DNA of 41,372 nucleotides from a virus (lineage: Duplodnaviria > Heunggongvirae > Uroviricota > Caudoviricetes), in the IMG/VR virus record IMGVR_UViG_2778261576_000004, positions 1 through 41,372 of that record; one strand, 5' to 3'. The notes under the pieces are model-generated. The model worked only from the letters and a program-made list of their open reading frames with translations, made no database searches and was not told the origin of the DNA. The position numbers and the translations under genes were made by a program. Position 1 is the first letter of the stretch, and each line of letters begins with the position of its first letter. Shown piece after piece: positions 5,026 through 35,502 of this stretch.

Positions 5026-5102
5026 TTACCGTTGAGGTAATAATTATGCGTATATGGTTTGATGTCAATAGATATGAGTTAAAAAAATTACCCGTTAGGT
5101 AA
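5026..5102. promoter_or_regulatory. OL-like operator region: two TTACC-N5-GGTAA palindromes (5026-5040, 5088-5102)
   Basis: Two perfect 15-bp palindromes in the intergenic region between the repressor gene and the first leftward early gene. Confidence 0.5.
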
Positions 5103-5113
5103 TCGAATAGGCA

Positions 5114-5138
5114 ATAAAAAAGCCGCCATAAGGCGGCT
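5114..5138 (-). terminator. Rho-independent terminator downstream of the repressor gene (hairpin usable on both strands)
   Basis: AGCCGCC-ATAA-GGCGGCT hairpin (5121-5138) with an A-run upstream on the plus strand, i.e. a U-tract after the hairpin on the minus strand. Confidence 0.6.
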
Positions 5139-5159
5139 TACTTACTGAAAAATATGGTT

Positions 5160-5744
5160 TTATTGTTTGTTTTTTTCGTTCTGGTTGATGACAAATTCAA
5201 TGTAACTTTCGATCTTTGCTTTCTCGGTTTCGGGTAACAATGCGTAGCGCGAGCGATCATAGTTGATGGTCGCAGGGTCGTGCGGGTGAATCAGTAATTC
5301 ATAGCCGTGACGCCCGAATGCGGATGCAACATTCTCCAGGGTGGAAATGGAAACGCTGACCTCATTGTTTAACAGGCGGCTGATTGTCACCTGGGCTACG
5401 CCGGATGCGCGGTGAAGTTTTCCCTGTGTTGAAAGGTCGCGGCTTTCGCTCATCCAGCGTTCCAGGTTGTGAGCCGCCAGCTGGCCAATGTCGCTTGGGC
5501 CGACAGGCTGAAAACCTTCCTGAGAAAGCGAGCGATCGATATCAAGCCAGTTACGGGGTTTATTGGCGGCAGCTTCAATTTTTCGCGCAACCTGATCGCC
5601 GATAACCTTCTTACCAAGAGCCCAGCGGTTTACCAGATTTGCCTGAGTTCCAAGTTTTTCAGCCATCCGCGTCTGAACACCATTGAATTCACGGTCGATC
5701 AAGTCGTTGAGATTTTGCCTGCGGACGTCCTGGATACTTTTCAT
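5160..5744 (-). CDS. Putative prophage repressor (CI-like, tandem HTH, no S24 peptidase domain recognisable)
   Basis: 194 aa; two HTH-like segments (GVQTRMAEKLGTQANLVNRW and GVAQVTISRLLNNE); sits between OL-like and OR-like palindrome pairs, divergent from a Cro-like gene. Confidence 0.55.
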   Translation of the reverse strand: MKSIQDVRRQNLNDLIDREFNGVQTRMAEKLGTQANLVNRWALGKKVIGDQVARKIEAAANKPRNWLDIDRSLSQEGFQPVGPSDIGQLAAHNLERWMSESRDLSTQGKLHRASGVAQVTISRLLNNEVSVSISTLENVASAFGRHGYELLIHPHDPATINYDRSRYALLPETEKAKIESYIEFVINQNEKNKQ

Positions 5745-5799
5745 TTTCTGGAAAATCGCCTCATATATGAATCAGTAGATGATTCAATTTAAAGCAATA

Positions 5800-5862
5800 T
5801 TACCCAACAGGTAAATGCACCTCATGGGTAACTATCCTTGATTTTTGTTACCTTATGGGTGA
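5800..5862. promoter_or_regulatory. OR-like operator region: palindrome 5800-5814 (perfect) and 5848-5862 (one mismatch)
   Basis: TTACCCAACAGGTAA and TTACCTTATGGGTGA in the 154-bp divergent intergenic region between repressor and Cro-like genes. Confidence 0.55.
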
Positions 5863-5898
5863 ATATTTATTATCTGAAATAAATATCAGGCAATAGCT

Positions 5899-6129
5899 AT
5901 GAGCGATAACGGACATTTCGATTTCAAAAAGCACTGGCTTGCACTTACTCCGGATGAGCGTGAAGCCTTCGCACAGGAAGCCGGAACGACGAGTCACTAT
6001 ATCCAGACTCACTTAACAGGTAAGCGCAAAATGCCAGGTAAAGTATTGATGAATGGGCTTTTTAAAGCCTGTAAAACAAGACAATGGCTGCGCTCAAAAG
6101 CAGAACTGGCATACTTCTTCTACTCATGA
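5899..6129 (+). CDS. Cro-like small HTH regulator
   Basis: 76 aa, divergent from the repressor across the operator region; HTH-like segment LTPDEREAFAQEAGTTSHYIQTHLTGKR. Confidence 0.45.
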   Translation: MSDNGHFDFKKHWLALTPDEREAFAQEAGTTSHYIQTHLTGKRKMPGKVLMNGLFKACKTRQWLRSKAELAYFFYS

Positions 6130-6150
6130 TATCCAGCTACAACCCTCTGT

Positions 6151-6175
6151 AGACCGCCACCCGGCGGTCTTTTCA
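6151..6175 (+). terminator. Rho-independent terminator after the Cro-like gene (tR1-like position)
   Basis: AGACCGCC-ACCC-GGCGGTCT hairpin followed by TTTCAT; immediately followed by a one-mismatch palindrome copy at 6185-6199. Confidence 0.5.
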
Positions 6176-6279
6176 TATCTATTCGTACCTCAAAGGTAAT
6201 AAAAAACCAAATATGGTTGATCTTTTTTTTGTGTCAGCACAAAATGACCGTAATCCCAATACTAATAACAGGGCTTACC

Positions 6280-6480
6280 ATGGAAATCATTACACGTATT
6301 GATGCCGCAAAGCGCGGACTTAAACGCTACTACACCGGAAAAACATGTAAGCACGGACATGACAGTGAACGCTGGGTTTACAACGGACACTGTGTTGAGT
6401 GCACCATGGAATCAAACCGTCGTATCAGGGCAGAGATTAAGCAGATCATGATTAATTCCTCCCCACAACATTCAAGCTGA
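6280..6480 (+). CDS. Hypothetical small Cys/His-rich protein (cII position)
   Basis: ORF between cro-like and O-like genes; CKHGH...HCVEC spacing suggests metal binding; start uncertain (ATG 6280 or upstream). Confidence 0.3.
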   Translation: MEIITRIDAAKRGLKRYYTGKTCKHGHDSERWVYNGHCVECTMESNRRIRAEIKQIMINSSPQHSS

Positions 6481-6495
6481 TAGCGGAGATTAATC

Positions 6496-7311
6496 ATGAG
6501 CAGACATGCAACAGATTGGGCCTGGGAGACAGATCCAGGTAGCTCATCATTAAAGCTCATACTGCTCTCGATGGCTGACAGAGCCGATGAATATAACCTC
6601 TGCTACCCCAGCATAGAACGCCTCGTTAAAGACACTTGCCTGAATAAAAAAACCGTGCAGGCCGGGCTTATATCGCTCATGAAAATGGGGCTTATTTCAG
6701 ATACCGGAGAGAGAAAGGGAGCGACAAAAAGAGTGCGGGTTTTCTCTCTTAATATAACCAAAAACGGGAACATTAAAGGCAACCGGGAGGGGGGCAATGA
6801 ACCCGAAAACGGTAATGTTACCGAAAACGGGAATATACCCAAAAACGGGATGTTGAATGATCCCAAAAACGGGATGTTGAATGATCCCAAAAACGGGATC
6901 CAGAACCAGTCATATAACCAGTCATTTAACCAAGAGAGGGAGAGCAGGACAAAAACCCGAGGTTCTGTGCCTCATGACCCCGGCGCAAACAACGCCGTGA
7001 TGAATAACTTTGTTCCTCCTGGTGGGCCAGGGCAATTAGGCAAATTTGTCATGCATGAACAATGGCAGCCATCAGATGACTTTCTTCGGAAAAGCTCATT
7101 GCAGGGGATCTACCTGGACAGTCTGCCAACGGCACAGGAACTTGCAGAGTTCAGAATTTACTGGATGGCTGAGGGTAAGGCATACCATCAGGCACAGTGG
7201 GAGCAGAAGCTGGCAAGGCGGCTGCAGATTAGCAGACAGAAGCAATCAACATTACCTGATAACAACGTTCCGCACTGGAACAGCCCTGAAGCATGGGAGG
7301 ATTTCTTGTGA
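6496..7311 (+). CDS. Replication initiator (lambda O-like HTH N-terminus, repeat-rich middle)
   Basis: N-terminal LKLILLSMADRADEYNLCYPSIERL-type winged-helix region common to phage replication initiators; internal DNA iterons; sits directly before the P-like gene. Confidence 0.75.
   Translation: MSRHATDWAWETDPGSSSLKLILLSMADRADEYNLCYPSIERLVKDTCLNKKTVQAGLISLMKMGLISDTGERKGATKRVRVFSLNITKNGNIKGNREGGNEPENGNVTENGNIPKNGMLNDPKNGMLNDPKNGIQNQSYNQSFNQERESRTKTRGSVPHDPGANNAVMNNFVPPGGPGQLGKFVMHEQWQPSDDFLRKSSLQGIYLDSLPTAQELAEFRIYWMAEGKAYHQAQWEQKLARRLQISRQKQSTLPDNNVPHWNSPEAWEDFL
6758..6901 (+). repeat. Iteron-like direct repeats inside the O-like gene (putative ori)
   Basis: About six spaced copies of CC(A/G)AAAACGG(G/T)A, including two identical 24-bp units CCCAAAAACGGGATGTTGAATGAT at 6838-6861 and 6862-6885. 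Confidence 0.55.
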
Positions 7312-8093
7312 ACAACGTTTTTACCGCGATACAAAACCGTGACGGAGAAGCCCTTTCTCGCATGTCAGGTTATGAGCATCAGTACGTCAACAATGACAAT
7401 GTGGTGAACATGTCAGCAGAGAGGCTTGTTGATGCCCTTTTCAAACAGCTGAAACAACTGTTTCCGGCGGCAGTGGTAACCAACCTGAAGACGCCAGAGC
7501 AGGAAGTCGCTGCAAAACAGCAGTGGATTGCTGCGTTTGCCGAAGGGGGGATCCGAACCCGTGAACAGGTTTCTGCTGGTATGCGCCACGCCCGCGCCAG
7601 TGAATCTCCGTTCTGGCCGTCGCCTGGGCAATTCATCAAGTGGTGTAAAGACAGCAAGATGGTTCTTGGCGTCACCATTGATGATGTGATGGCGGAGTTT
7701 AACCGGTACAGCAAGGAAAAAAGTTTATATCCTGGTGGTCCCGAAAGATTCCCGTGGCGACATCCGGTTATGTACTGGGTCGTATGTGATACCCGCCGTG
7801 CAATGTATCAGCGCCAGCTTAGCGAGATTGAGGTTGAGAAACACGCGCGCAGGCTGCTCGATGATTGGGCGAAAAAGGTGGCTTCCGGACAGCAGATACC
7901 CGATCCGGTGATCAGCATACAGGCAAAGCCAGAACCCATGAGTACACCTCCGGACACAGGGAGAGACGTTTACCATCCACCAGGGCGAAGTTTCGGGTGC
8001 ATGCCTAACGCCGCCACCCTTGGTGGAATAACACCGGCGCAGTGGCTGATGGAGGAATACAGGCGAGGAAAGGCGGCAGGATTTATCAAGTAA
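7293..8093 (+). CDS. Replication protein P-like (DnaB helicase loader)
   Basis: Colinear similarity to lambda P as recalled: ...FPAAVV...QQWIAAFAEGGIRTREQVSAGMRHARASESPFWPSPGQFIKWCK matches the P motif ...RQWVLAFRENGITTMEQVNAGMRVARRQNRPFLPSPGQFVAWCR. Confidence 0.8.
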   Translation: MGGFLVNNVFTAIQNRDGEALSRMSGYEHQYVNNDNVVNMSAERLVDALFKQLKQLFPAAVVTNLKTPEQEVAAKQQWIAAFAEGGIRTREQVSAGMRHARASESPFWPSPGQFIKWCKDSKMVLGVTIDDVMAEFNRYSKEKSLYPGGPERFPWRHPVMYWVVCDTRRAMYQRQLSEIEVEKHARRLLDDWAKKVASGQQIPDPVISIQAKPEPMSTPPDTGRDVYHPPGRSFGCMPNAATLGGITPAQWLMEEYRRGKAAGFIK

Positions 8094-8130
8094 TACCAGC
8101 GCGATAGCGCATTTTTTTACGCCTCGACAA

Positions 8131-8207
8131 TTACCTGTTAGGTAATAAAATATTCTAAAATCTATTGATTTCGTGTCTTATGTGGTTTTTAATTACCTCA
8201 GAGGTAA
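8131..8207. promoter_or_regulatory. Two palindrome copies (8131-8145, 8193-8207) plus a TATGTGGTT box (8179-8187) upstream of the 8211 gene
   Basis: Perfect TTACCTGTTAGGTAA and TTACCTCAGAGGTAA; the second ends 3 nt before ATG 8211 and overlaps the SD. Confidence 0.45.
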
Positions 8208-8210
8208 ATC

Positions 8211-8555
8211 ATGAGAAAACAGATACAGGCTCTTGGTCGACTCAAAACAGGTCAGATGAACAAAACAGAATCTGCGTATTGCCAGCACCTTGAGCTGCGT
8301 AAACGTGCAGGAGAAATCGTCTGGTATCGATTTGAGGGTATCAAGCTGCGGTTAGCTGACAACACGTTCTATACGCCCGATTTTGCTGTGATGCTCGCCA
8401 CCGGCGAGATGGAACTGCACGAAGTGAAAGGTTTCTGGACCGACGACGCCAGGGTGAAAACCAAAGTCGCCGCAGATCAGTATCCGTTCCGAATCATCGG
8501 GGTAACTGTTAAACCAAAGAAAGCAGGTGGTGGCTGGATCATCGAAGAGTTCTGA
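8211..8555 (+). CDS. PD-(D/E)XK-like nuclease (DUF1064-like phage protein)
   Basis: 114 aa with YTPDF...ELHEVKG (D...E-x-K) motif; family name from memory, not searched. Confidence 0.5.
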   Translation: MRKQIQALGRLKTGQMNKTESAYCQHLELRKRAGEIVWYRFEGIKLRLADNTFYTPDFAVMLATGEMELHEVKGFWTDDARVKTKVAADQYPFRIIGVTVKPKKAGGGWIIEEF

Positions 8556-8616
8556 ATCGACGATCTTTTTAGTTATCAATGTTATCAATAAGTTATGTGG
8601 ATAAGCGAGGGTAAAG

Positions 8617-9150
8617 ATGGAAAGTAATATCAAATGGTTAGTTGCCGCCGGGCATGAGATGGCTTCGGAACTGAAAGCAGAATGTGGTGCCGTTGATATG
8701 CGCAGTGTGGCAAAGCTGATCAGCGATTTGGCAACGCAACTGGAAGTGCAACTGGTGCGTGCTAATGCGCTGGCCGAAGACCAGCAGAAAGCGATTGAGT
8801 CAATTAAGCAGGCTGATGCAGCTGTTAAGTTGGCACACGAGAAGTTTTCGGCGCTGGCAGCGGAGAATGCGAGACTGAAATCTGCGCACCCTCAACCATT
8901 CGGACCTGAGATGATGAAGGCTATTGATGCGTATGAGAAGTATCAGGATGAAGTGCCGGAGACTGGGATGCTCAATGCATTTTTCATCTTGCGCGACAGT
9001 ATCCGTGTTGACACCACAGCCACCGATGCTTTCCTGGCTGAAGTGCGGGCGCAGGTGGTAGAGATGTTTGCGGAGTGTGCATACACGCTTGAACATCATG
9101 ATCACGCAGTAGCTTTTGCCGCCGAGCTACGTGAAGGAGGCAACCAGTGA
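8617..9150 (+). CDS. Ea22-like family protein (paralog 1)
   Basis: C-terminal 45 aa (ATDAFLAEVRAQ...HHDHAVAFAAELR.GGNQ) nearly identical to the end of the 10601-11248 product; shares the ALAAENA coiled-coil module with the other paralogs. Confidence 0.55.
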   Translation: MESNIKWLVAAGHEMASELKAECGAVDMRSVAKLISDLATQLEVQLVRANALAEDQQKAIESIKQADAAVKLAHEKFSALAAENARLKSAHPQPFGPEMMKAIDAYEKYQDEVPETGMLNAFFILRDSIRVDTTATDAFLAEVRAQVVEMFAECAYTLEHHDHAVAFAAELREGGNQ

Positions 9151-9446: not shown

Positions 9447-9447
9447 T

Positions 9448-12015: not shown

Positions 12016-12016
12016 G

Positions 12017-12208
12017 ATGGACGGACAAATATCAATTACTCGACCTAACACAGGTGATGATGACAAGATAAGAATGGCTATTCGTCTGGAGAGAGGAAAA
12101 ACAATAACTGTCCTTGTTACCCCAGAAAATCTTGCATTAGCACTGACCGGAAAGTCAGAACTCCCCGTAGAGCTAGATGTGAGAAATGTTGAGATTAAGG
12201 TGAAATAG
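12017..12208 (+). CDS. Hypothetical small protein (63 aa)
   Basis: ATG at 12017 directly after the upstream stop; in-frame part of ORF-track entry 11855-12208. Confidence 0.3.
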   Translation: MDGQISITRPNTGDDDKIRMAIRLERGKTITVLVTPENLALALTGKSELPVELDVRNVEIKVK

Positions 12209-12210
12209 GT

Positions 12211-12972: not shown

Positions 12973-13322
12973 TGGACTATTCACAGTTAAGTGATTTTGA
13001 AATTAACAGAATGGTAGGAGACATAATTTTTAAAGGACTTTGGGCGTGTAAACCGGAAACATCAGGGAATAACACCAACAAATGGTATTACGGAAATACT
13101 GATACAACTTTTGAGCCATTAAACCCTTTACCTGACTACTGCAATAATCCATCGGATGCATGGCCTATTATTGTTGATAATAAAATCAGTCTAACCTGCC
13201 ACCACTCTCGCGGTGAGTGGTCAGCAGTTTTTAATGCCGACAACATTTGCTTTCATGCGAATAATCCACTCCGAGCCGCCATGATTGTATTTCTCATGAT
13301 GCAGGAAAATCAGAATGGCTAA
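12969..13322 (+). CDS. Hypothetical phage protein
   Basis: 117-aa ORF with overlapping stop/start on both sides; no confident domain call. Confidence 0.4.
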   Translation: MMDYSQLSDFEINRMVGDIIFKGLWACKPETSGNNTNKWYYGNTDTTFEPLNPLPDYCNNPSDAWPIIVDNKISLTCHHSRGEWSAVFNADNICFHANNPLRAAMIVFLMMQENQNG

Positions 13323-13653
13323 ATCAGCAGCAGAGCGCAAAGCCGCTCAGAGAGCCAGACAAGCTGCATCTGGCGTGCGTAAGCTGGAAATTGTGCTTGA
13401 TGCTCAGGAAATTGAAATGCTGGAGCGTAACTGTGCCACGCGTCGCCCCGGGCGTGCGCCTTACGAATTTGGTGAGTATATAGCGTTACTGATCCGCCAG
13501 GATGATGCACGCGTGCGCGGGCGTATAAAATCGATCAGCAGAAAACGTTGCGGTAAGTGCGGCGAGATAGTTCCTGTGAATTCATGCCCGTGTAATGGTG
13601 ACTCGCAATGCTGGGTGACCAAAGGCTGGCATGAAACGAAATTAATAGTGTGA
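13315..13653 (+). CDS. Hypothetical protein with basic N-terminus and C-terminal Cys cluster (candidate regulator)
   Basis: N-terminus MAKSAAERKAAQRARQAASG...; C-terminal CGKCGEIVPVNSCPCNGDSQC zinc-ribbon-like cluster; last gene before the terminase-proximal terminator. Confidence 0.4.
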   Translation: MAKSAAERKAAQRARQAASGVRKLEIVLDAQEIEMLERNCATRRPGRAPYEFGEYIALLIRQDDARVRGRIKSISRKRCGKCGEIVPVNSCPCNGDSQCWVTKGWHETKLIV

Positions 13654-13670
13654 CATGTCACGAAGGTGTT

Positions 13671-13888: not shown

Positions 13889-13914
13889 GCCGCCAACTAT
13901 GGCGGCTTTATTTT
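13889..13914 (+). terminator. Rho-independent terminator upstream of the terminase genes
   Basis: GCCGCC-AACTAT-GGCGGC hairpin followed by TTTATTTTG. Confidence 0.6.
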
Positions 13915-13925
13915 GCATGGTACTA

Positions 13926-13940
13926 TTACCACAACGGTAA
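13926..13940. promoter_or_regulatory. TTACC-N5-GGTAA palindrome upstream of the terminase small subunit gene
   Basis: Perfect TTACCACAACGGTAA between the terminator and ATG 13958 (17 nt upstream); a partial repeat (CTATTACCAC) follows. Confidence 0.45.
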
Positions 13941-13957
13941 CTATTACCACGGTGGTT

Positions 13958-14554
13958 ATGATGCCTGCTGAACCTAAAACCTATAAACGCAAATCAACGC
14001 AATTTAAGCCGCTCACAGCAATGCAGGAGGCTTATTGCCAGTCATACATCAAAACGCCTGAAAACCAGACTCAGGCAGCGATTAACGCAGGATTCTCCCC
14101 AAATACAGCGGCAGTTAAAGCCAGTGTCATGATGCGCGATGAACGCATTCAAAAACGGATTGCCGAGTTGATGGAGGAGCGCAACAAACGAATGCGCGTC
14201 AGTGCTGATTACGTTCTCATGCGCCTGGTGGAGATCGACCAGATGGACGTGATCGACATCCTCAACGACGATGGGAGCCTTAAGCCAATCCGCGAGTGGC
14301 CGAAAATCTGGCGCACTACGCTTAGTGGCTTTGATCTGTCATCGACCATCATGAACATGAACGAGGATTCGATAGAGACAATCCTCAAAAAAATTAAATG
14401 GCCTGACAAGGTGAAGAACCTCGAACTGATTGGTAAGCACGTCGACGTCAACGCGTTCAAAGAACGCCTGGATGTTAATGTGAATGTGACAATTGCTGAT
14501 CGCATAGCGGCAGCCAGGAAGCGACTCAAAGAACGTCAGGATGGTAATCAGTGA
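13958..14554 (+). CDS. Terminase small subunit
   Basis: Directly upstream of and coupled to the large subunit; HTH-like N-terminus (TAMQEAYCQSYIK...AAINAGFSPNTAAVKAS). ORF-track start 13880 rejected because it spans the terminator. Confidence 0.65.
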   Translation: MMPAEPKTYKRKSTQFKPLTAMQEAYCQSYIKTPENQTQAAINAGFSPNTAAVKASVMMRDERIQKRIAELMEERNKRMRVSADYVLMRLVEIDQMDVIDILNDDGSLKPIREWPKIWRTTLSGFDLSSTIMNMNEDSIETILKKIKWPDKVKNLELIGKHVDVNAFKERLDVNVNVTIADRIAAARKRLKERQDGNQ

Positions 14555-16026: not shown

Positions 16027-16116
16027 TCCGCTGGTGGGGATAATGTCGTTGATATCCTCTGATGAGGATAAAACAAAGCCAGCTCATCGGCTGGCTGTTT
16101 GTGACATGTCACGGTG

Positions 16117-16488
16117 TTATTGCTCGCTTAGCTTCTGCTTCAGCAAGTAACCTTCGAGCATCCAGATTTTGTTTACAGCATTCTGCCGGGCAATCTTCCG
16201 ACCAATTTCTGCATCAAAGTTTTCCGGGCTTGCACAGGCGCTCTCTCCGGTGACGGTGAAGCCGTTGCGCAGCACCAGGACGCAGAACGTCAGCAGAGAA
16301 AGTGATTCGTGCGGCTGGTAGTTTACCTCTCCGCCAGTATGTTTCGCTTTTATGGCTTTGCCAAAGGCACCATCTTCTGCTGTGAAATATGCCTCCTGAG
16401 CAATAATGCCTTCGATATGGTCTGGCGTAACGCGCGGTGCCGTTTTGCCTTTCTCAACGATTTCTTTTTCGATTTGCTTGTCGTTCAT
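16117..16488 (-). CDS. Hypothetical protein (possibly Gp49/Sf6 gp66-like family)
   Basis: 123-aa minus-strand ORF inserted between terminase and portal genes on the opposite strand; family name from memory only. Confidence 0.4.
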   Translation of the reverse strand: MNDKQIEKEIVEKGKTAPRVTPDHIEGIIAQEAYFTAEDGAFGKAIKAKHTGGEVNYQPHESLSLLTFCVLVLRNGFTVTGESACASPENFDAEIGRKIARQNAVNKIWMLEGYLLKQKLSEQ

Positions 16489-16686: not shown

Positions 16687-16763
16687 TGGCGTGGCATGCA
16701 GGATTCGAACCTGCGACCAACCGCTTAGAAGGCGGTTGCTCTGTCCGACTGAGCTAATGCCAC
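16687..16763 (-). tRNA. tRNA-Arg (anticodon UCU)
   Basis: Minus strand folds by hand into a cloverleaf: acceptor GTGGCAT/ATGCCAC, D-arm GCTC/GAGC, anticodon stem ACCGC/GCGGT with loop CTTCTAA, T-arm GCAGG-TTCGAAT-CCTGC, encoded CCA. Confidence 0.85.
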
Positions 16764-17085: not shown

Positions 17086-17165
17086 TTACCTGAAAGGTAA
17101 TAATTCACGCGTTAAATGTCAACCTTCTACGATAAATAAATCATATGTGGTTAAATTGGTAATAA
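17086..17165. promoter_or_regulatory. Palindrome (17086-17100) plus TATGTGGTT box (17144-17152) and GGTAATA (17159-17165) upstream of the portal operon
   Basis: Same arrangement as upstream of the tailspike gene (35438-35502). Confidence 0.45.
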
Positions 17166-19386: not shown

Positions 19387-20082
19387 ATGAATTTATTTGA
19401 GCGTTTGCTGTATCGCCGTCTTTGCAATGAGCAACCAGTCGATGGTGGAGCAGCTCCGGCTGCGTCAGAACCGTCAGCGCCTGCAGGTGATAACCCTGCT
19501 CCAGTTGGTGATCCATCACAACCGGAAGGTGATAAGCCACAACCTGTTGCTGATGGCGATAAACCTGCTGATGACAAAAAGCCTGAAAACGATAAGCAGG
19601 ATGAAAAAAAGGACGGCGATAAACCAGAGGGTGCGCCTGAGAAGTACGAGTTTCAGGCTGCCGAAGGCGTAGAGCTGGATACAGAAGCGTTGAAGGAATT
19701 CGAGCCGGTGGCGCGAGAACTAAACCTGACCAACGAGCAAGCGCAAAAGCTGGTTGATGCTTATCCGAAGATTCTGGCAGGTGTTCAGCAGCGCCAGGCA
19801 GAAGCCTGGCAGAAAACAACCGAGCAGTGGGCTGCGGATGTAAAAGCTGACAAAGAAATCGGTGGCGACAAGTTGATTTCTAACCTTAGCGCCGCACAGC
19901 GTGCGCTTGACCAGTTCGGGACACCTGAACTCAAAGAATATCTGAACACCACCGGGCTGGGTAATCACCCTGATCTGGTCAAAACGTTCGTGAAAATTGG
20001 AAAGGCGATGTCTGAAGATGGCATGGTCACCGGTGGTAATGAAGGCCAGCGTAGTGCGGCCGAAGTGCTCTATGGCAAATAA
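19387..20082 (+). CDS. Putative scaffolding protein
   Basis: Position between portal and capsid genes; acidic, Pro/Lys-rich low-complexity N-terminal half and helical C-terminal half; ATG 19387 with AGGAG SD. Confidence 0.55.
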   Translation: MNLFERLLYRRLCNEQPVDGGAAPAASEPSAPAGDNPAPVGDPSQPEGDKPQPVADGDKPADDKKPENDKQDEKKDGDKPEGAPEKYEFQAAEGVELDTEALKEFEPVARELNLTNEQAQKLVDAYPKILAGVQQRQAEAWQKTTEQWAADVKADKEIGGDKLISNLSAAQRALDQFGTPELKEYLNTTGLGNHPDLVKTFVKIGKAMSEDGMVTGGNEGQRSAAEVLYGK

Positions 20083-31800: not shown

Positions 31801-32208
31801 GGCACGATTGCGCTTGGCTCAATGGTCTATATGATGAAACAGAAGTTAAGCGGTCGCGATATCGACTACAGCTGGAATAACCTTGTGAAAGAGGGGATCG
31901 ACCGGGGCGGAATGCTTGGCTGGCTCTCTGAGCCGCTGAATACCGTTGAGAACATAAGCGGCGGTAGGTTTGGTCTTGGCGCGATGTTTGGTGCGCCTCC
32001 GGTATCAAGGTTTCAGAGTCGTAATGCTATTGGTGCTTTACTTGGTCCTACCTTTGATCTTGGCGGTGATGCCGCGACGGTTGCGAATGGTGTACTTAAC
32101 GGAGAATTTGACAGCCAGCAAACCCACGCGGTCCGTAAAATGCTACCTTTTCAGAACCTGTGGGCGATATCACCGTTACTAAATAAAGTTGAAGAGCAGA
32201 TGAAATAG
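28819..32208 (+). CDS. Putative internal virion (ejection) protein D-like
   Basis: 1129-aa ORF in the gp16 position; long coiled-coil regions and hydrophobic Gly/Ala-rich stretches. Confidence 0.55.
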   Translation: MPIYEQDPKELLGEDIQQIAAPDDSNFYMETPSLLSAVNPFTSDQRVQRSRQAAFRIDNTLGSFIASAPFSQFDRVEGYNPFDNDAADIKGYEDFADSFINSGSPEETMAIKHRIDQQRADMEYNSGLGFAGTVSSVAMRLADPFNAISMFIPFGAVVRGGRIAETAGRFALANAAGSVASEAALQATQEARSPMESVSNVVVDALVGGILGAGAQLLAGPGAREAVVNSVGNHLRGMDSPQSIGAAQVFNTTLDQEQLAGLGLANKTLSVTPAGRLAQSPSLVSRQINQQLAENNYFFAKNDEGLATFTAVETKIKQYDAMLYKQMEATRDAYQQYSKSVSARGVKRMNFIDFNEAVGMAMRRGDQSDIPEVSQAAARIRPIFETTKARMQELGILPEDIDVVTAKSYLPRIYKFDKILSDRTEFRGRIANWIQGISAKGADKAGQRIERINSLLKTAEESAPRADALASEIAEAEKWSGKKILLMEELDKRNKLISQETDTQARLTRIEKELAETSSEKLQARMMKESSDLKTRLDDIAQAKSELPVYQRHMELLDNPRKYRSELRRLQKRANSTTRLNASRERALKQMEPLSREEAEDAADEIVNKIIGAPSGLVPADIIPERLVGRAGFTKSRTLLIPDERIEDFLESDVNYIMESYLRQVAPEIELTAQFGRKDMGEQIRQVSEEYTRLIKEAKTPKRRAVLEKQREADIRDITAMRDRLLGTYGAPQDPRSFFVRAGRVARNINFLRLLGGMTVSAATDLMRPMMQHGLRKSLGPMVSMLKNMDSVKIATRDLREMAVGLDYVLSTRTKAIADLTDPYSRRSAAERGLNWMTQKFGNWTLMNQWNSALKSWSGMIVQSRILDAARQVSAGGTLSKSEMRKMAQVGINEDVLRRIGEQFGKHGEDMDGLLTGHSHLWDDRFAREIFQSAVLKDVDSVIVTPGVGDTPLFFSKEGWKMITQFKTFIFAQHNRVLVSGIQQGDAAFYLGALGTIALGSMVYMMKQKLSGRDIDYSWNNLVKEGIDRGGMLGWLSEPLNTVENISGGRFGLGAMFGAPPVSRFQSRNAIGALLGPTFDLGGDAATVANGVLNGEFDSQQTHAVRKMLPFQNLWAISPLLNKVEEQMK

Positions 32209-32649
32209 CTATTCACAATTAGTGATGGCGTATGTATCAAATATATTGCCATCACTAAATACATACCTATACTCAATCACTCCGCCAAGGTGAATAAATG
32301 CTTTCATTTGCCTGTTGGAGCAAATGCTCGATTTTGAATAATTTCGCATTACACTCTTTAATTTATTTTCTAAGGTTACATCACCATTATAAACTTTTGA
32401 TAAATAGCTGTTGTTGTAATTAAGATGCGCTACAACTAAAAGTTTGTTTAGTATTGCATTTATTGAAACAATAGACATATTATCATTCAATTTTATGGGA
32501 AGTGACTTTCCTGCTTCTGATGCAATTTTGTTTGCATGTGCACACATATCCTCATTTATTAAATTCTTAAAACATATGTCGTTTGCAAACGAAAAAATTG
32601 GTAGGATAAACAAAACGGTAGCTGTAATAGCGTGCATCGGCTTAATCAT
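32209..32649 (-). CDS. Hypothetical secreted protein (AT-rich accessory gene)
   Basis: N-terminal signal-peptide-like segment (AITATVLFILPIFSFA); strongly AT-rich coding sequence; convergent with the upstream virion gene. Confidence 0.4.
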   Translation of the reverse strand: MIKPMHAITATVLFILPIFSFANDICFKNLINEDMCAHANKIASEAGKSLPIKLNDNMSIVSINAILNKLLVVAHLNYNNSYLSKVYNGDVTLENKLKSVMRNYSKSSICSNRQMKAFIHLGGVIEYRYVFSDGNIFDTYAITNCE

Positions 32650-32661
32650 TAGGTGACCTTT

Positions 32662-33111
32662 ATGTTCAAGAAGATGATCAACAGATTAATCGGTGGTAAG
32701 GAGGTTAGCAATAAAATTCAACCTCTTATCTTTAAGGATAACTTTTCAGCTTTTGAGTATGCGTGTAAGTATCTTGACACAAGCCTTTCAGCCAATAAAC
32801 CAATGCCAGCCATCATCATACCTGGTCCCAGTGGGGAACAGCCAGTTTTGCTGGATTCTGGAAGACAAAGGGCAATGCTGAAGGTGTGCTCAGCTGATGG
32901 TGGATTTTTTGTTATTGCCGATTCATCTTACAGCAAAGGACCAAAGCTGAGGATTGGTGATCTTGTTGCTTGGTTGCCTGTGAGTTATGCCGAAGAATTA
33001 ACGGATAAAATAGAAGATCCTCGCTCCGCTATGGTTGGCTTTATATTGGGAACCATTCATCCTGAACTAACATCTACTGGCTGGAAGGGTAAAGAAAGAT
33101 TTCGCAAGTAG
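32662..33111 (+). CDS. Hypothetical protein (AT-rich accessory gene)
   Basis: ATG 32662 with AGGTGA SD; divergent from the 32209-32649 gene with almost no spacer; followed by a terminator. Confidence 0.4.
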   Translation: MFKKMINRLIGGKEVSNKIQPLIFKDNFSAFEYACKYLDTSLSANKPMPAIIIPGPSGEQPVLLDSGRQRAMLKVCSADGGFFVIADSSYSKGPKLRIGDLVAWLPVSYAEELTDKIEDPRSAMVGFILGTIHPELTSTGWKGKERFRK

Positions 33112-33125
33112 CGTGACATGTCACA

Positions 33126-33149
33126 GGCCGCTTTCGCGGCCTTGTTTTT
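33126..33149 (+). terminator. Rho-independent terminator
   Basis: GGCCGC-TTTC-GCGGCC hairpin followed by TTGTTTTT; directly preceded by the GTGACATGTCAC palindrome. Confidence 0.6.
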
Positions 33150-33309
33150 AACGAATGCCACCGCCGCCCGGACGGGAATCCGCAGAACGCCCACCGCAGC
33201 GGGAGCCGTCAGCAGCAGTGTCGCTGTCGTGCTGACAACGACCGGCAAAGGCCTGAGTTGAAGCTACCAGAGACAACAAAACGAACAGTGCAGCAAATGC
33301 TTTTTTCAT
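33148..33309 (-). CDS. Hypothetical small secreted peptide
   Basis: Predicted signal peptide MKKAFAALFVLLSLVASTQAFA followed by a 31-aa Gly/Arg-rich tail with two Cys; weak SD. Confidence 0.25.
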   Translation of the reverse strand: MKKAFAALFVLLSLVASTQAFAGRCQHDSDTAADGSRCGGRSADSRPGGGGIR

Positions 33310-33401
33310 TGTGAAATTTCCATCTATAAGCCACCTCAATGTGGCGTCAATGAGTGTAGCACTGACTTTTGTTTCGCCCACAAAAAAGCCCGCAGCGCGG
33401 G

Positions 33402-33842
33402 CTATTCTTCTTCATCATTAAAAAGCGGATTGTTGTTTCCATCTGATGAAAGGAAAGGTATGTGTTCTCTTGAAAATCCAACAATGACAATTTCATTATC
33501 ATTTTTTGCATAATGAATGCATTCATTAGAATGCCTTCCGCCAGGGTTGAAATTTAAGTTAATGGTATAATTCTTAAATGTGTTTGGATACCATGTTGGC
33601 CCACAATGATAATGCCAATAATTCTCTTGCTCATAATTGTCTGAGCCGGGAATTTTATCATGGTTATCATCAACCCACGAGGGCTTGTTTTTTCCAACAA
33701 GCGCCCTTCCATTGGCAACATCCTCTAAAAAACTTTGTATGATTTTTATTTCATCATCAGTAAGGAAAGGTCCGTCTACAGCGAAAGGGGTGTTGCTTTC
33801 CCCATGTAGAAAACTATTAGATATTCTAATGTTAAACTTCAA
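33402..33842 (-). CDS. Hypothetical protein (AT-rich, probable TTG start)
   Basis: TTG at 33842 preceded by CAGGAG SD; AT-rich; downstream partner of the 33863-34030 gene. The ORF-track N-terminal extension to 33983 overlaps the better-supported small gene. Confidence 0.4.
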   Translation of the reverse strand: MKFNIRISNSFLHGESNTPFAVDGPFLTDDEIKIIQSFLEDVANGRALVGKNKPSWVDDNHDKIPGSDNYEQENYWHYHCGPTWYPNTFKNYTINLNFNPGGRHSNECIHYAKNDNEIVIVGFSREHIPFLSSDGNNNPLFNDEEE

Positions 33843-33862
33843 GGAAAACTCCTGATGTGCTT

Positions 33863-34030
33863 CTATTTGGAGCGAAATGCCGCCTTGAAGTCGCTGAAAG
33901 ATGTTCCTGTCTGGTAAACCATATCCTTGTCGCGCTCTTTGCTTGCGCGGCCAAGCATAACTTTTCCAATGACATCCCAGCATTGCTTGGCTTGTTCATT
34001 GTGCTGAGTACGATTTTTCAACGCTGTCAT
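33863..34030 (-). CDS. Hypothetical small protein (55 aa)
   Basis: ATG 34030 with a strong AAGGAGG SD 6 nt upstream and a palindrome copy directly 5' of it; translation MTALKNRTQHNEQAKQCWDVIGKVMLGRASKERDKDMVYQTGTSFSDFKAAFRSK. Confidence 0.4.
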   Translation of the reverse strand: MTALKNRTQHNEQAKQCWDVIGKVMLGRASKERDKDMVYQTGTSFSDFKAAFRSK

Positions 34031-34042
34031 ATCGCGCCTCCT

Positions 34043-34057
34043 TTACCTTTAAGGTAA
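34043..34057. promoter_or_regulatory. TTACC-N5-GGTAA palindrome at the 5' end of the small-gene cassette
   Basis: Perfect TTACCTTTAAGGTAA abutting the SD; upstream on the minus strand are a TTGCAG -35-like and TACTAT -10-like hexamer with 17-bp spacing. Confidence 0.4.
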
Positions 34058-34129
34058 TAGTACGCTATTCACCCACAGTCTGCAATCTGTACAGAATTAT
34101 TTAAAGGCACATCCCTGTGCCGCCGCCCG

Positions 34130-34786
34130 TCAGAAGAACCCAGCCTTGTCGTTGATGTACTCCGCGTGGGTCTGGATATCACGCAGGCATTTGCTCACAC
34201 CAACAATGTAGCAGAACATGGTGGTCAGCTCCGCCGCCGCACCCGATACGTCGTGCCCGTCTTCCTGTAACTGGTTCAGCAGATTCATCAGCAGTGAGTT
34301 CTCCGTCAGGCCGAGAACACCAGACGGCGAATGAATCAGGCTACGGTAGCCGGGCTTCAGTGGGGCGCTGTATTCTTTTTTGTCTTCCAGCTTGATCGCC
34401 TCCATAATGGCGGGCATGAAGCCTGACAAGACCTTCTCCACTTTTGTTTCTTGTTGTCTTAAACGTTTCTCGCATTCAATGAAGTAGCGTCGCACCTGGC
34501 GACCTTTTTCGTTACGCTCGACCATCGCCAGCTCTTTGGCTGTATCAAGGGTGAGGTGGTACTCTTTGCGGTTGTGGCCGCCTCTACCAGATGTTTGCTT
34601 TCCCAAATTGGAAAGCAAAATATAGTCTTGATTTTCAATGAATTCGTATTCTGATATGCGATTTGTAATCCATGCTGCAAACACCTTTTTAACACCTAAA
34701 AAAGCGTGCAGATCGCGGGCATTACAAAGTAGGGCTGTTTCGTTAGATATAGTGCCGTTGAATACGGGGATGAGTTGAGCGTTCAT
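34130..34786 (-). CDS. Phage antirepressor (AntA/AntB-type N-terminal domain)
   Basis: N-terminus [38 protein letters not shown] matches the AntA pattern as recalled; C-terminal domain shared with the 35104-35361 product; GGAGA SD. Confidence 0.7.
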
Positions 34787-35103
34787 GATGGCGTCTCCAC
34801 TTAGCGAATTACATCACCACCGCTGAGACCAATCAGATGGTGGTGAACTGAACGGAGTTGGTCTTACCGGCCTAAGTGGTACCGGCGTCCTTTCGGACCC
34901 CCATTCAGCCCACCATAATTCTGGCATGACTGTGCTATACGCATAAAAAAACCACGTCTGGCGTGGTATGCGCCACTTAGTAATCCGGGAGACCAATCCC
35001 GGCACTGGATTTTGCCAGTGCCCGATTACTATGGCACAAGAGGAGTGCGATGTAAATTTACCGCAAAGGTAAATATAAGCACTCCTTTTGGTAATTGCAA
35101 ACC
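34787..35103 (-). other. Structured non-coding leader/spacer with intrinsic terminator
   Basis: Several perfect hairpins (e.g. CCGGGA-GACCAA-TCCCGG, CACTGG-ATTTTG-CCAGTG), a minus-strand terminator (CCACG-CCAGA-CGTGG then T7) near 34943-34964, and a palindrome copy (35058-35072) nested in an 8-bp stem (AGGAGTGC/GCACTCCT). Confidence 0.4.
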
Positions 35104-35361
35104 TTATCTGGTTTGTTTACGTAATTGTTCGGCACAATAGTCGAGATGTGTTTGCAGATCCCGCATAGACATCTGTGAGCTGGTGACGTAGTTAATCAGT
35201 GCAGTCAGTTCGGCAAGTGGGCCATCGACATTAAATCCATCCTTATCGAGCTCCCGGAGTAATTTCATCAAGTGCGATCCCTCCACCAGTGATCTGACGC
35301 CTCCCGGCGTGTGAATCCTTTCGGTAAATCCGTCTTCCAGTGGATAGTGATACTGCTGCAT
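35104..35361 (-). CDS. Small protein homologous to the antirepressor C-terminal domain
   Basis: ...TPGGVRSLVEGSHLMKLLRELDKDGFNVDGPLAELTALINYV... aligns by eye with ...[42 protein letters not shown]... of the antirepressor; ATG 35361 with GGAGAA SD (ORF-track TTG at 35379). Confidence 0.45.
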   Translation of the reverse strand: MQQYHYPLEDGFTERIHTPGGVRSLVEGSHLMKLLRELDKDGFNVDGPLAELTALINYVTSSQMSMRDLQTHLDYCAEQLRKQTR

Positions 35362-35437
35362 CTTATCTTCTCCATGCAATAACTGTATATTTATACAGTA
35401 TCAAATAATTTGTTTGCTATCCAGCACGTTTTGAAAA

Positions 35438-35502
35438 TTACCTGAAAGGTAATATATATTCGTATTTACAGCCTTTCTATCCATATGTGGTTTTACAGGT
35501 AA
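35438..35502. promoter_or_regulatory. Palindrome (35438-35452) plus TATGTGGTT box (35484-35492) and GGTAATA in the divergent region upstream of the tailspike gene
   Basis: TTACCTGAAAGGTAA is identical to the copy upstream of the portal operon. Confidence 0.45.

What the first reader, a model, noticed from the sequence alone, without database searches (positions are those of the whole stretch)
5026..35452. A 15-bp palindrome TTACC-N5-GGTAA recurs at least 12 times: at OL/OR-like positions and in front of replication, terminase, portal, tailspike and accessory genes
Seen directly: perfect copies at 5026-5040, 5088-5102, 5800-5814, 8131-8145, 8193-8207, 13926-13940, 17086-17100, 34043-34057, 35058-35072 and 35438-35452, with one-mismatch copies at 5848-5862 and 6185-6199. 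All are intergenic. Two lie left of the repressor gene and two between repressor and cro-like gene, the classical lambdoid OL/OR layout. The rest sit directly upstream of the DUF1064-like gene, the terminase small subunit, the portal operon, the tailspike gene and the antirepressor and small-gene cassettes. In lambda-type phages repressor operators are confined to OL and OR, so one operator-like site spread over the late and accessory regions suggests a single DNA-binding protein wiring early, late and moron promoters. Several copies abut a Shine-Dalgarno sequence, so an mRNA-hairpin role is an alternative.
Basis: partly seen in the sequence, partly recalled or inferred. Interest (0 to 1): 0.8.

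Follow-up and report, generated by a model that had tools for sequence, protein, structure and literature searches.

The report
Dispersed repressor operators of phiV10-like prophage
The repeated palindrome is real and is almost certainly the binding site of this prophage's main repressor, placed in front of nearly every operon so that one protein silences the whole phage; the same sites are already marked as repressor sites in the public record of the related phage epsilon15, so this is a well-documented case, not a new kind of system.

Summary
TTACC-N5-GGTAA occurs 10 times perfectly (0.03 expected) and 14 times with at most one mismatch (0.66 expected), at all the stated coordinates.

The window is a phiV10/epsilon15-like (Uetakevirus) E. 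coli prophage. Its repressor (5160-5744) is a full-length homolog of the SPC32H Rep whose structure is solved. The 91-aa gene at 35104-35379 is the matching LexA-controlled antirepressor Ant.

The same palindrome is the most frequent 5-N-5 palindrome in all seven Uetakevirus genomes examined and in three further prophages that carry a Rep homolog. It sits at the same places in each: OL, OR, after cro, after the replication genes, and before terS, the portal operon and the tailspike/ant region. The flanking DNA has diverged.

The epsilon15 GenBank record already marks seven of these sites as 'protein_bind: repressor'. An mRNA hairpin role is unlikely.

New details from this work:
- Operator pairs keep a strict 62-bp spacing.
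- The operator recurs in two positions: abutting the -10 hexamer, or filling the spacer between -35 and -10.
- A second palindrome is conserved at the lytic promoters.

Direct binding at the late promoters remains untested.

The parts
5026..5040 (.). OL proximal operator. It abuts, and shares one base with, the -10 of the leftward early promoter PL.
   Evidence: Perfect copy. PL is predicted as TTGACA-17-AATTAT at 5068->5040 on the minus strand. Conserved in 7 genomes.
5088..5102 (.). OL distal operator, exactly 62 bp from the proximal one and upstream of the PL -35.
   Evidence: Perfect copy. The 62-bp spacing is kept in six of the seven genomes, 63 bp in BUCT711, and also in L088 and L090.
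5160..5744 (-). Rep, the prophage repressor. It has an N-terminal HTH DNA-binding domain, a middle dimerisation domain and a C-terminal tetramerisation/Ant-binding domain.
   Evidence: PDB 5D50_A (SPC32H Rep), E 4e-42 over residues 1-190. Pfam HTH_3 match and no peptidase S24 domain. NLVNRW at residues 36-41 is invariant. Domain layout from PMC9986798.
5800..5814 (.). OR1, the operator nearest rep. It overlaps the likely rep promoter.
   Evidence: Perfect copy. Conserved position. The promoter assignment is my reading of the sequence.
5817..5831 (.). OR2, a degenerate copy (GCACC...GGTAA) 17 bp from OR1.
   Evidence: Two mismatches. The orthologous copy is perfect in epsilon15, SPC32H and BUCT711.
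5848..5862 (.). OR3, lying in the -35/-10 region of the rightward promoter PR, in front of the cro-like gene.
   Evidence: One mismatch. -35 TTGATT at 5838-5843. The tool's alternative is TTGTTA-17-TATTAT at 5845-5873.
5899..6129 (+). Cro-like small HTH protein (76 aa).
   Evidence: phrog_35, transcriptional repressor, E 5.6e-13. Translation.
6185..6199 (.). Operator after the cro terminator, at the head of the replication operon.
   Evidence: One mismatch. Terminator at 6151-6170. The same position is occupied in phiV10, Tyrion and BUCT711.
8131..8145 (.). Distal operator of the pair after the replication-operon terminator. It may also fill the spacer of a predicted promoter, TCGACA-16-TAAAAT.
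   Evidence: Perfect copy. Promoter at 8124-8151. Alignment.
8193..8207 (.). Proximal operator, 62 bp from 8131. It abuts TTTAAT (8188-8193) and contains the ribosome-binding site of the DUF1064 gene.
   Evidence: Perfect copy. -35 TTGATT at 8165-8170 and TTTAAT at 8188-8193. 'CTATTGA' and the operator are invariant in 7 genomes.
13926..13940 (.). Operator upstream of terS, after the terminator of the early-right operon.
   Evidence: Perfect copy. Terminator at 13889-13906. Annotated as a repressor site in epsilon15 at 12-27.
13944..13958 (.). Second terS operator, 18 bp away, covering the ribosome-binding site and start codon of terS.
   Evidence: One mismatch. Present in phiV10, epsilon15, Tyrion and BUCT554.
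17086..17100 (.). Operator upstream of the portal/head operon.
   Evidence: Perfect copy. Conserved in 7 genomes while the upstream flank is unalignable. Annotated in epsilon15 at 2931-2947.
17148..17162 (.). Half-operator TGGTT-N5-GGTAA exactly 62 bp from 17086, inside an invariant 30-bp block (ATATGTGGTTAAATTGGTAATAATTTAA). It is a candidate weak second Rep site overlapping the portal promoter.
   Evidence: Its function is inferred.
34043..34057 (.). Operator at the head of a leftward accessory unit (55-aa gene 34030->33863 and the 193-aa gene). It is adjacent to that gene's AGGAGG ribosome-binding site.
   Evidence: Perfect copy. Sequence. phrog_8607 and phrog_5954.
35058..35072 (.). Operator abutting the -10 of a leftward promoter that drives isrK-like RNA, C4 antisense RNA and the AntA-type antirepressor.
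   Evidence: Perfect copy. Promoter TTGCAA-17-TATATT at 35100->35072. Rfam isrK at 34945-35021 and C4 at 34836-34920. AntA domain.
34130..34786 (-). Second antirepressor: an AntA N-terminal domain fused to a C-terminal part related to the small Ant.
   Evidence: PF08346, E 4e-26. phrog_377, and phrog_450 on residues 135-216.
35104..35379 (-). Ant, the small antirepressor that inactivates Rep.
   Evidence: PDB 5D50_E, E 7e-47.
35383..35398 (.). LexA box in the ant promoter.
   Evidence: CTGTATATTTATACAG, the only match in the window. Conserved in 7 genomes.
35438..35452 (.). Operator in the ant/tailspike intergenic region. It lies upstream of the leftward ant promoter and inside a predicted rightward promoter, TTGAAA-18-TATATT.
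   Evidence: Perfect copy. Promoter at 35431-35460. Annotated in epsilon15 at 19895-19911.
35488..35502 (.). Half-operator TGGTT-N5-GGTAA, 50 bp from 35438. It lies within the 17-bp spacer (35486-35502) between the conserved TCCATA (35480-35485) and TAGAAT (35503-35508), the likely tailspike promoter.
   Evidence: The promoter assignment is inferred from conservation.
38409..38423 (.). One-mismatch match inside a coding sequence. It is probably chance and not part of the system.
   Evidence: 0.66 such matches are expected by chance. It lies within ORF 38276-38689.

Best explanation
The 15-bp palindrome (fuller consensus a-A-TTACC-t-n-W-n-a-GGTAA-T-t) is the operator of the prophage repressor Rep (5160-5744), a member of the SPC32H/epsilon15 Rep family.

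Proposed mechanism (inferred unless marked otherwise):
- Each half-site is read by one N-terminal helix-turn-helix domain. The invariant stretch NLVNRW is the likely recognition helix.
- Rep is a tetramer with two pairs of DNA-binding domains (shown for SPC32H Rep). It could therefore hold two operators at once.

The genome is built from short operons. Each ends in a terminator and restarts at its own promoter, and almost every restart carries a Rep operator in one of two positions:
- Abutting the -10 hexamer: PL, the DUF1064 promoter, the C4/AntA promoter and the 34-kb accessory promoter.
- Filling the -35/-10 spacer: OR3, and the weak copies at the tailspike and portal promoters.

These sites are often paired with a second operator 62 bp away (about six helical turns), or 17-18 bp away.

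In the lysogen, Rep would therefore shut off the early-left, early-right, replication, packaging, head and tail units and two accessory units directly, instead of relying on a lambda-type antitermination cascade. On DNA damage, LexA leaves the ant promoter (LexA box at 35383-35398). Ant then binds the C-terminal domains of Rep and releases it from all operators at once.

Shown here: the enrichment, the positions, the conservation, and the homology of Rep and Ant. Inferred: that Rep occupies every site, the bridging of site pairs, and the promoter assignments.
For: - Enrichment: 10 perfect copies against 0.03 expected; 14 against 0.66 at up to one mismatch.
- Homology: Rep is a full-length homolog of the SPC32H repressor, PDB 5D50_A, E 4e-42. 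Ant matches 5D50_E, E 7e-47. The LexA box is present.
- Prior annotation: the epsilon15 record marks 7 orthologous sites as 'protein_bind repressor', and their sequence is ATTACC-N5-GGTAAT.
- Generality: TTACC-N5-GGTAA is the top 5-N-5 palindrome (8-11 perfect copies) in all 7 Uetakevirus genomes from E. coli, Salmonella, Enterobacter and Klebsiella. It also occurs 7 times in 20 kb around each of three further Rep homologs of 54-65% identity.
- Footprinting: the sites are orthologous and invariant while the flanks diverge.
- Location: all 11 perfect epsilon15 copies lie in the 6.6% of that genome that is non-coding.
- Reverse test: of 79 IMG/VR stretches found only by two palindromes 62 bp apart, 62 encode a Rep homolog. 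Those I inspected of the rest (L100, L101) are truncated stretches of the same phage type, and two (L094, L159) are unrelated low-GC phages.
- Recognition helix: the N-terminal NLVNRW is invariant in Reps of 42-100% identity.
- Promoter context.
- Literature: SPC32H Rep is a tetramer that binds palindromic sites with DNA-binding domains paired across dimers, and Ant disassembles it (PMC9638917). It has an N-terminal DNA-binding domain, a middle dimerisation domain and a looping-type tetramerisation domain, with the two pairs of dimerisation domains about 100 A apart (PMC9986798).
- Functional hint: overexpressing the identical repressor in phage ZX5 cut endolysin and holin transcripts by more than 99.9% (PMC9782041).
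Against: - No binding data were available to me for this phage or for the late-operon sites. The primary SPC32H papers and the epsilon15 genome paper are not in the held library, and the epsilon15 annotation may be purely predictive.
- The covariation test was uninformative. Reps with altered helices (NLVSRW, NLISRW, NLINRW) still sit next to the same palindrome. Nothing therefore ties the motif to Rep rather than to another conserved phage protein such as the Cro-like product.
- The portal, terS and tailspike promoters are weak by sigma-70 consensus, and the scan did not call them. Repression geometry there is conjecture.
- In this window the holin promoter lacks a full operator. Not every late unit is covered.
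Confidence: 0.82

Rival explanations
1. The sites are shared by, or mainly serve, a second phage regulator. One candidate is the 76-aa Cro-like protein, acting as a lytic repressor on the same operators as in lambda or P22. Another is the conserved 112-aa regulator encoded just before terS. Under this reading, the late-region copies are used for timing during lytic growth and not for lysogenic silencing.
For: The Cro-like HTH protein is encoded next to OR. A conserved regulator of family phrog_536 lies at 13315-13653. There is no helix/operator covariation that would single out Rep. The late promoters look activator-dependent.
Against: Nothing excludes Rep binding as well. Sharing operators with Cro would be the classical arrangement and would add to the main explanation without replacing it. 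The epsilon15 record assigns the sites to the repressor. Paired sites 62 bp apart suit a tetramer with two DNA-binding pairs better than a small Cro dimer.
Confidence: 0.25
2. The palindrome acts at the RNA level, as a small hairpin near ribosome-binding sites that modulates translation or mRNA stability.
For: The 25-nt segments fold into 6-7-bp hairpins of -4.2 to -7.2 kcal/mol. Copies at 8193, 13944 and 34043 touch a ribosome-binding site.
Against: - Any palindrome folds, so the folding energies are not informative.
- The base identity of the arms, not just their pairing, is fixed in 65 of 65 perfect sites from 7 genomes.
- Imperfect orthologous sites carry one-sided, uncompensated changes: GGTGA, GTACC, TCACC, GCACC.
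- Several sites lie upstream of the predicted -35 (5088, 8131, 17086), right after terminators.
- Where the operator abuts the -10, transcription should start inside it and leave out the left arm.
- No Rfam family overlaps the sites.
Confidence: 0.04
3. The motif is a target of a restriction-modification or methylation system, or of a host transcription factor, and not of a phage repressor.
For: The phage encodes an MT-A70-type adenine methylase. The same palindrome also occurs in unrelated low-GC phage switch regions, so it is not unique to this Rep family.
Against: Methylase and restriction targets are not confined to promoter gaps, whereas all 11 perfect epsilon15 copies are non-coding. The motif tracks the presence of a Rep homolog. 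In the low-GC phages it again sits between divergent cI and cro genes, which is operator behaviour. I know of no E. coli regulator with this consensus (own knowledge; not tested).
Confidence: 0.03

Closest known systems
Repressor-binding sites annotated in Salmonella phage epsilon15 (NC_004775.2; genome paper Kropinski et al. 2007, not readable here)
   Same: Same palindrome (ATTACC-N5-GGTAAT). Same orthologous positions: before terS, before the gp3/portal operon, before the tail-fibre gene, left of the repressor, and after the replication genes.
   Different: The Reps are only 42% identical. The epsilon15 record marks 7 sites and omits OR, the holin-promoter site and the second member of the 62-bp pair, all found here. 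This window has extra sites at accessory cassettes (34043, 35058) and lacks a full holin-promoter site.
SPC32H Rep-Ant antirepression switch (PDB 5D50/5D4Z; Kim & Ryu 2013, Kim et al. 2016)
   Same: Full-length Rep and Ant homologs, a LexA box in front of ant, and palindromic operators. Tetrameric Rep with two DNA-binding pairs is described in PMC9638917 and PMC9986798.
   Different: The published work, as far as I could read it second-hand, concerns the switch and the protein complex. PMC9986798 states that the structural mechanism of repression 'has not been extensively characterized'. Genome-wide operator use and the 62-bp pairing are my inference.
Phage P1 C1 repressor with many dispersed operators, and the P1 immI module (C4 RNA-icd-ant) (own knowledge)
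   Same: One repressor with more than 10 operators scattered over the genome, controlling many separate operons. One of these is an antirepressor operon that also carries a C4 antisense RNA; here the C4 Rfam hit lies upstream of an AntA-type gene behind operator 35058.
   Different: P1 operators are asymmetric 17-mers, and C1 is unrelated in sequence. P1 is a plasmid prophage.
Mycobacteriophage L5/L1 gp71 'stoperators' (PMC1934351 abstract; own knowledge)
   Same: Tens of repressor sites spread through the genome, far beyond the immunity region.
   Different: Stoperators are asymmetric, lie within transcribed regions in one orientation and block elongation. Here the sites are symmetric and sit at promoters in non-coding gaps.
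Lambda/P22 OL-OR switch
   Same: Divergent repressor and cro genes with three operators between them, and a leftward early promoter with operators.
   Different: No S24 autocleavage domain. Induction is by an antirepressor. Operators are not confined to OL/OR. Operons are individually terminated and re-promoted.
Global repressors of plasmid backbones, e.g. RP4 KorA (PMC2665229 abstract)
   Same: One small palindromic operator reused at many promoters to coordinate separate functional modules.
   Different: This is a plasmid system with an unrelated protein. The resemblance is in logic only.

Membership tests
SPC32H/epsilon15-type Rep-Ant immunity system (Uetakevirus) | Repressor homologous over its full length to SPC32H Rep (N-terminal DNA-binding domain, middle dimerisation domain, C-terminal tetramerisation/Ant-binding domain) | tested here: met
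   phmmer against PDB: 5D50_A E 4e-42 over residues 1-190; 5D4Z (residues 92-198) E 4e-20. Alignment of six Reps.
SPC32H/epsilon15-type Rep-Ant immunity system (Uetakevirus) | Small antirepressor Ant encoded next to the tailspike gene and controlled by a LexA box | tested here: met
   5D50_E E 7e-47. CTGTATATTTATACAG at 35383-35398, directly upstream of ant.
SPC32H/epsilon15-type Rep-Ant immunity system (Uetakevirus) | ATTACC-N5-GGTAAT operators at the rep/cro region and at the positions annotated in epsilon15 | tested here: met
SPC32H/epsilon15-type Rep-Ant immunity system (Uetakevirus) | Rep physically binds these palindromes and Ant releases it | not testable with these tools
   Needs EMSA, footprinting or ChIP. 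Second-hand statements exist only for SPC32H.
Lambdoid CI/Cro switch | Divergent repressor and cro genes with multiple shared operators between them, plus operators at a leftward early promoter | tested here: met
   Sites at 5800, 5817 and 5848 between rep and the cro-like gene; 5026 and 5088 at PL.
Lambdoid CI/Cro switch | Repressor with a C-terminal S24 (LexA-like) autocleavage domain | tested here: not met
   Pfam finds only HTH families, no Peptidase_S24. The C-terminal half matches the SPC32H tetramerisation/Ant-binding region.
Lambdoid CI/Cro switch | Operators confined to OL and OR, with late genes controlled through antitermination | tested here: not met
   Eight further sites outside OL/OR at operon heads. 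Terminators separate the operons. The presence of an antiterminator was not tested.
Global phage repressors with dispersed operators (P1 C1, L5 gp71, phiC31 c) | Ten or more operator copies spread across the genome outside the immunity region | tested here: met
   13-15 sites over 30 kb. The same holds in 7 related genomes.
Global phage repressors with dispersed operators (P1 C1, L5 gp71, phiC31 c) | Asymmetric operator acting in one orientation within transcribed DNA (L5 stoperators, P1 operators) | tested here: not met
   The site is a perfect palindrome and lies in non-coding promoter gaps.
Global phage repressors with dispersed operators (P1 C1, L5 gp71, phiC31 c) | Sequence homology of the repressor to C1, gp71 or the phiC31 c protein | not tested
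   Only Pfam and PHROG scans were run. They report generic HTH families and name none of these.

The most novel reading that the evidence does not exclude
The Rep regulon of these phages may be a fixed, genus-wide wiring plan that has not been described as such. It would have three elements:
- Promoters are clamped by one Rep tetramer bridging two operators that are kept 62 bp apart in six of the seven genomes (63 bp at OL in BUCT711), at OL, at the post-replication promoter and, with a weak partner site, at the portal promoter.
- A second, unannotated palindrome (AWCCA-N4-TGGTT) sits at the replication, portal, tailspike and lysis promoters. It would be read by a second, unidentified regulator that sets lytic timing.
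- Because more than ten operators would have to change together, operator specificity is frozen. Reps that differ by up to 58% of residues, in E. coli, Salmonella, Klebsiella, Enterobacter and Serratia prophages, all keep one operator. That would make these phages mutually immune unless Ant specificity or spacer preferences separate them.
Probability: 0.3. Interest if true: 0.55.

Novelty: new member of a known kind. Interest (0 to 1): 0.3.

Why it matters
This does not open a new field. It gives a clean, checkable map of how a common family of E. coli and Salmonella prophages (phiV10, epsilon15, SPC32H) is silenced: one repressor, about fifteen operators, and one antirepressor that frees them all.

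The map is useful in three ways:
- For people engineering phiV10-type reporter phages.
- For interpreting the SPC32H Rep tetramer structure. The 62-bp operator pairs are an obvious substrate for testing the proposed binding by domains paired across dimers, and for testing looping.
- For asking why operator specificity is conserved across Reps that are only 42% identical, which bears on cross-immunity among these prophages.

Tried and rejected
- Literature: I tried to read the epsilon15 genome paper (PMC2698709 and its DOI), the two SPC32H papers (PMC4983836, PMC3807360) and the P1 genome paper (PMC523184). None is held. Statements about them are second-hand or from my own knowledge. Full-text searches for the motif or for Uetakevirus operators found nothing specific.
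- Covariation between recognition helix and operator: I collected 86 Rep homologs, picked three with altered helices and fetched their loci. All keep TTACC-N5-GGTAA, so the test cannot discriminate.
- Protein-based IMG/VR scan: it returned only 100%-identical copies and added no diversity.
- Natural 'no-Rep' control: Sodalis phage phiSG1, the nearest portal relative without a Rep hit, is a degraded mosaic and was dropped.
- Canonical sigma-70 promoters at the portal, terS and tailspike sites: the scan does not call them. My hand assignments rest on conservation only.
- DnaA, IHF or CRP as readers of the second motif: the consensus does not fit (own inspection).
- Hairpin energies: uninformative, because any palindrome folds.

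Full report
**1. Observation**

Dinucleotide-preserving shuffles give 0.03 copies on average and never more than 1. With one mismatch allowed there are 14 copies against 0.66 expected:
- 13944, which is 18 bp from 13926 and overlaps the terS ribosome-binding site and start codon;
- 38409, which is inside a coding sequence and is the kind of single hit chance predicts.

A two-mismatch copy at 5817-5831 lies between 5800 and 5848, so the repressor/cro gap holds three sites.

The sites are non-coding. The only apparent exception is 13926/13944, which fall inside the phiV10-style TTG-started terS. This disappears once the conserved N-terminus MPAEPK (ATG at 13958/13961) and the terminator at 13889-13906 are taken into account.

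**2. What the window is**

The region is 97-98% identical to Escherichia phages phiV10, phiv142-3, PAS61 and others of the genus Uetakevirus. The window runs from the integrase start through the lysis genes, plus about 1.2 kb beyond the lysis genes that I take to be host flank (not verified).

- The repressor gene (5160-5744, minus strand) encodes a 194-aa protein that matches the solved SPC32H repressor over residues 1-190 (PDB 5D50_A, E 4e-42).
- It has HTH matches but no S24 autocleavage domain.
- The 91-aa gene at 35104-35379 matches the SPC32H antirepressor Ant (5D50_E, E 7e-47).
- A perfect LexA box, CTGTATATTTATACAG, lies at 35383-35398 in its promoter.

This is therefore the Rep/Ant type of immunity system, not a lambda-type CI.

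**3. The motif is already annotated in the type phage**

The epsilon15 reference record carries seven 'protein_bind, repressor, lysogeny' features. Reading them out gives ATTACC-N5-GGTAAT at these positions: before terS, before the gp3/portal operon, before the tail-fibre gene, three left of the repressor, and one after the replication genes. These are the orthologs of the window's 13926, 17086, 35438, 5026/5088 and 8131.

The central idea of the finding, a repressor operator reused at late operons, is thus in the public record for this genus, at least as a prediction. I could not read the accompanying paper or the SPC32H papers.

**4. Comparative evidence**

- An unbiased count of all 5-mer/spacer/reverse-complement palindromes puts TTACC-N5-GGTAA first in every one of seven genomes, with 8 to 11 perfect copies each and the next palindrome far behind. 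The genomes are the window, phiV10, epsilon15, Tyrion, SPC32H, Klebsiella BUCT711 and Enterobacter BUCT554.
- The copies are orthologous. In alignments of the portal, tailspike, post-replication and PL regions, the half-sites are invariant columns while upstream flanks are often unalignable.
- In epsilon15, all 11 perfect copies lie in the 6.6% of the genome not annotated as coding.
- The symmetrised logo from 65 sites is a-A-TTACC-t-n-W-n-a-GGTAA-T-t, with an A/T centre in 95% of sites.
- Three more prophages whose Rep is 54-65% identical and carries a changed helix (NLVSRW, NLISRW, NLINRW) have 7 perfect copies each within 20 kb. Two are from E. coli and one from Serratia. The two E. coli prophages keep the same 62-bp pairs.
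- In the reverse direction, I searched IMG/VR only for two palindromes 62 bp apart. This returned 79 new stretches, of which 62 encode a Rep homolog. Those I inspected of the rest (L100, L101) are truncated pieces of the same phage type.
- Two stretches (L094, L159) are low-GC phage switch regions that use the same palindrome between an unrelated XRE repressor and a cro gene.

**5. Anatomy and likely mechanism**

The genome is cut into short operons by rho-independent terminators. Nearly every restart carries an operator, in one of two recurring geometries.

(A) The operator abuts the -10 hexamer, so it covers the start site:
- PL: TTGACA-17-AATTAT, then TACC....
- The promoter before the DUF1064 gene: TTGATT-17-TTTAAT, then TACC.... 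'CTATTGA' is invariant in seven genomes.
- The leftward promoter at 35100->35072: TTGCAA-17-TATATT, then TACC....
- By eye, the unit at 34043.

(B) The operator fills the -35/-10 spacer:
- OR3 in PR.
- The tool-predicted promoters at 8124-8151 and 35431-35460.
- The degenerate copies TGGTT-N5-GGTAA, which sit between conserved -35-like and -10-like hexamers at the tailspike promoter (TCCATA ... TAGAAT) and the portal promoter.

Spacing between operators is constrained:
- OL and the post-replication promoter each have two operators 62 bp apart in six of the seven genomes and in L088 and L090; in BUCT711 the OL pair is 63 bp apart.
- The portal unit has its weak partner at exactly +62.
- OR1-OR2 and the two terS sites are 17-18 bp apart.

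According to papers I could read, SPC32H Rep is a tetramer that binds palindromic sites through DNA-binding domains paired across dimers, and Ant breaks the assembly (PMC9638917). It has an N-terminal DNA-binding domain, a dimerisation domain and a looping-type tetramerisation domain, with the two domain pairs about 100 A apart (PMC9986798).

From this I infer that one tetramer bridges the paired operators around a promoter, and that Ant, made when LexA is inactivated, frees all operons simultaneously. Consistent with global silencing, overexpressing the identical repressor of phage ZX5 lowered endolysin and holin transcripts by more than 99.9% (PMC9782041).

None of this shows occupancy at the late sites. 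That step is inferred.

**6. Rival explanations**

It is weak for four reasons. The arms are fixed in sequence, not merely complementary. Imperfect orthologs carry uncompensated one-sided changes. Several sites are upstream of their promoters and just after terminators. In geometry A the transcript should begin inside the palindrome. The folding energies only restate that palindromes fold.
- A second regulator sharing the sites (the Cro-like protein, or the 112-aa regulator before terS). This cannot be excluded and would complement Rep, not replace it.
- A methylation/restriction target or a host factor. This does not fit the strict promoter-gap location or the association with Rep.

**7. Comparison with known systems and novelty**

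- The window is a member of the epsilon15/SPC32H Rep-Ant family; every testable defining feature is met.
- It resembles lambda only in the divergent repressor/cro layout. It fails lambda's autocleavage and 'operators only at OL/OR' criteria.
- It works like the global repressors of P1, L5 and phiC31, or plasmid KorA, in reusing one operator at many promoters. It differs from P1 and L5 in having symmetric, promoter-located sites.
- The C4-RNA/antirepressor cassette behind operator 35058 is a further parallel to P1 immI.

I rate the finding as a new member of a known kind. Possibly new details are the strict 62-bp pairing, the two promoter geometries, the conservation of one operator across Reps only 42% identical, and a second conserved palindrome at the lytic promoters.

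**8. Verdict**

Interest is 0.3. The most novel reading still open is a fixed genus-wide wiring plan with tetramer clamps, a second unknown regulator and frozen operator specificity. I give it about 0.3 probability, and it would deserve about 0.55 interest if true.

Noticed in passing
window 6205-6218, 17139-17152, 35479-35492, 38212-38225 (also 5046-5059, 35100-35113): A second palindrome, AWCCA-WATR-TGGTT, gives 16 strand matches at up to 2 mismatches against 1.84 expected. The best copies sit at the post-cro, portal, tailspike and holin promoters, next to or downstream of the Rep operators. The same element is present at those promoters in phiV10, epsilon15, Tyrion and SPC32H; BUCT711 and BUCT554 show it at only some of them. 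It is not annotated in the epsilon15 record. The protein that binds it is unknown.
   Followed up: partly
window 13650-13661, 16101-16112, 33113-33124: The 12-bp palindrome GTGACATGTCAC occurs 3 times against 0.03 expected. It lies at the ends of three rightward operons, next to rho-independent terminators. Most of the other six genomes have it at two or three of these places. Its function is unknown.
   Followed up: partly
window 34836-35021 (-), 34130-34786 (-): The '63-aa ORF' is really an isrK-like Hfq-binding sRNA (34945-35021) plus a C4 antisense RNA (34836-34920). Both lie upstream of an AntA-type antirepressor whose C-terminal part (residues 135-216) belongs to the same PHROG as the small Ant. 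This resembles the P1 immI module, and it sits behind Rep operator 35058.
   Followed up: partly
window 35383-35398: A perfect LexA box, CTGTATATTTATACAG, lies directly upstream of the ant start. It is conserved in all seven genomes.
   Followed up: yes
L088, L089, L090 (E. coli and Serratia prophages); alignment A1: Reps that are 42-100% identical, including variants with NLVSRW, NLISRW or NLINRW in the presumed recognition helix, are all associated with the identical TTACC-N5-GGTAA operator. This raises the question of whether these phages are cross-immune.
   Followed up: partly
L094 3793-4142; L159 323-423: Two low-GC IMG/VR phage contigs carry 4-5 copies of the same TTACC-N5-GGTAA palindrome in and around the gap between a 134-aa XRE-type repressor and a 77-aa cro-like gene. 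One copy lies between TTGACA and TATAGT. The operator sequence is the same, but the repressor showed no tblastn match to either Rep query.
   Followed up: no
window 16690-16763 (-): A tRNA gene on the minus strand lies between terL and the portal operon, next to a leftward gp49/Sf6-gene-66 family gene at 16117-16488. A conserved TGTCAA just right of operator 17086 reads TTGACA on the minus strand. It could be the -35 of a leftward promoter whose -10 falls inside the operator.
   Followed up: no
window 38160-38275: The holin-operon promoter has a Rep operator in phiV10, epsilon15, Tyrion, SPC32H and BUCT554. In this window it keeps only a GGTAA half-site (38202-38206), downstream of a different accessory gene at 37763-38062. 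The lysis operon here may therefore escape direct Rep control.
   Followed up: partly
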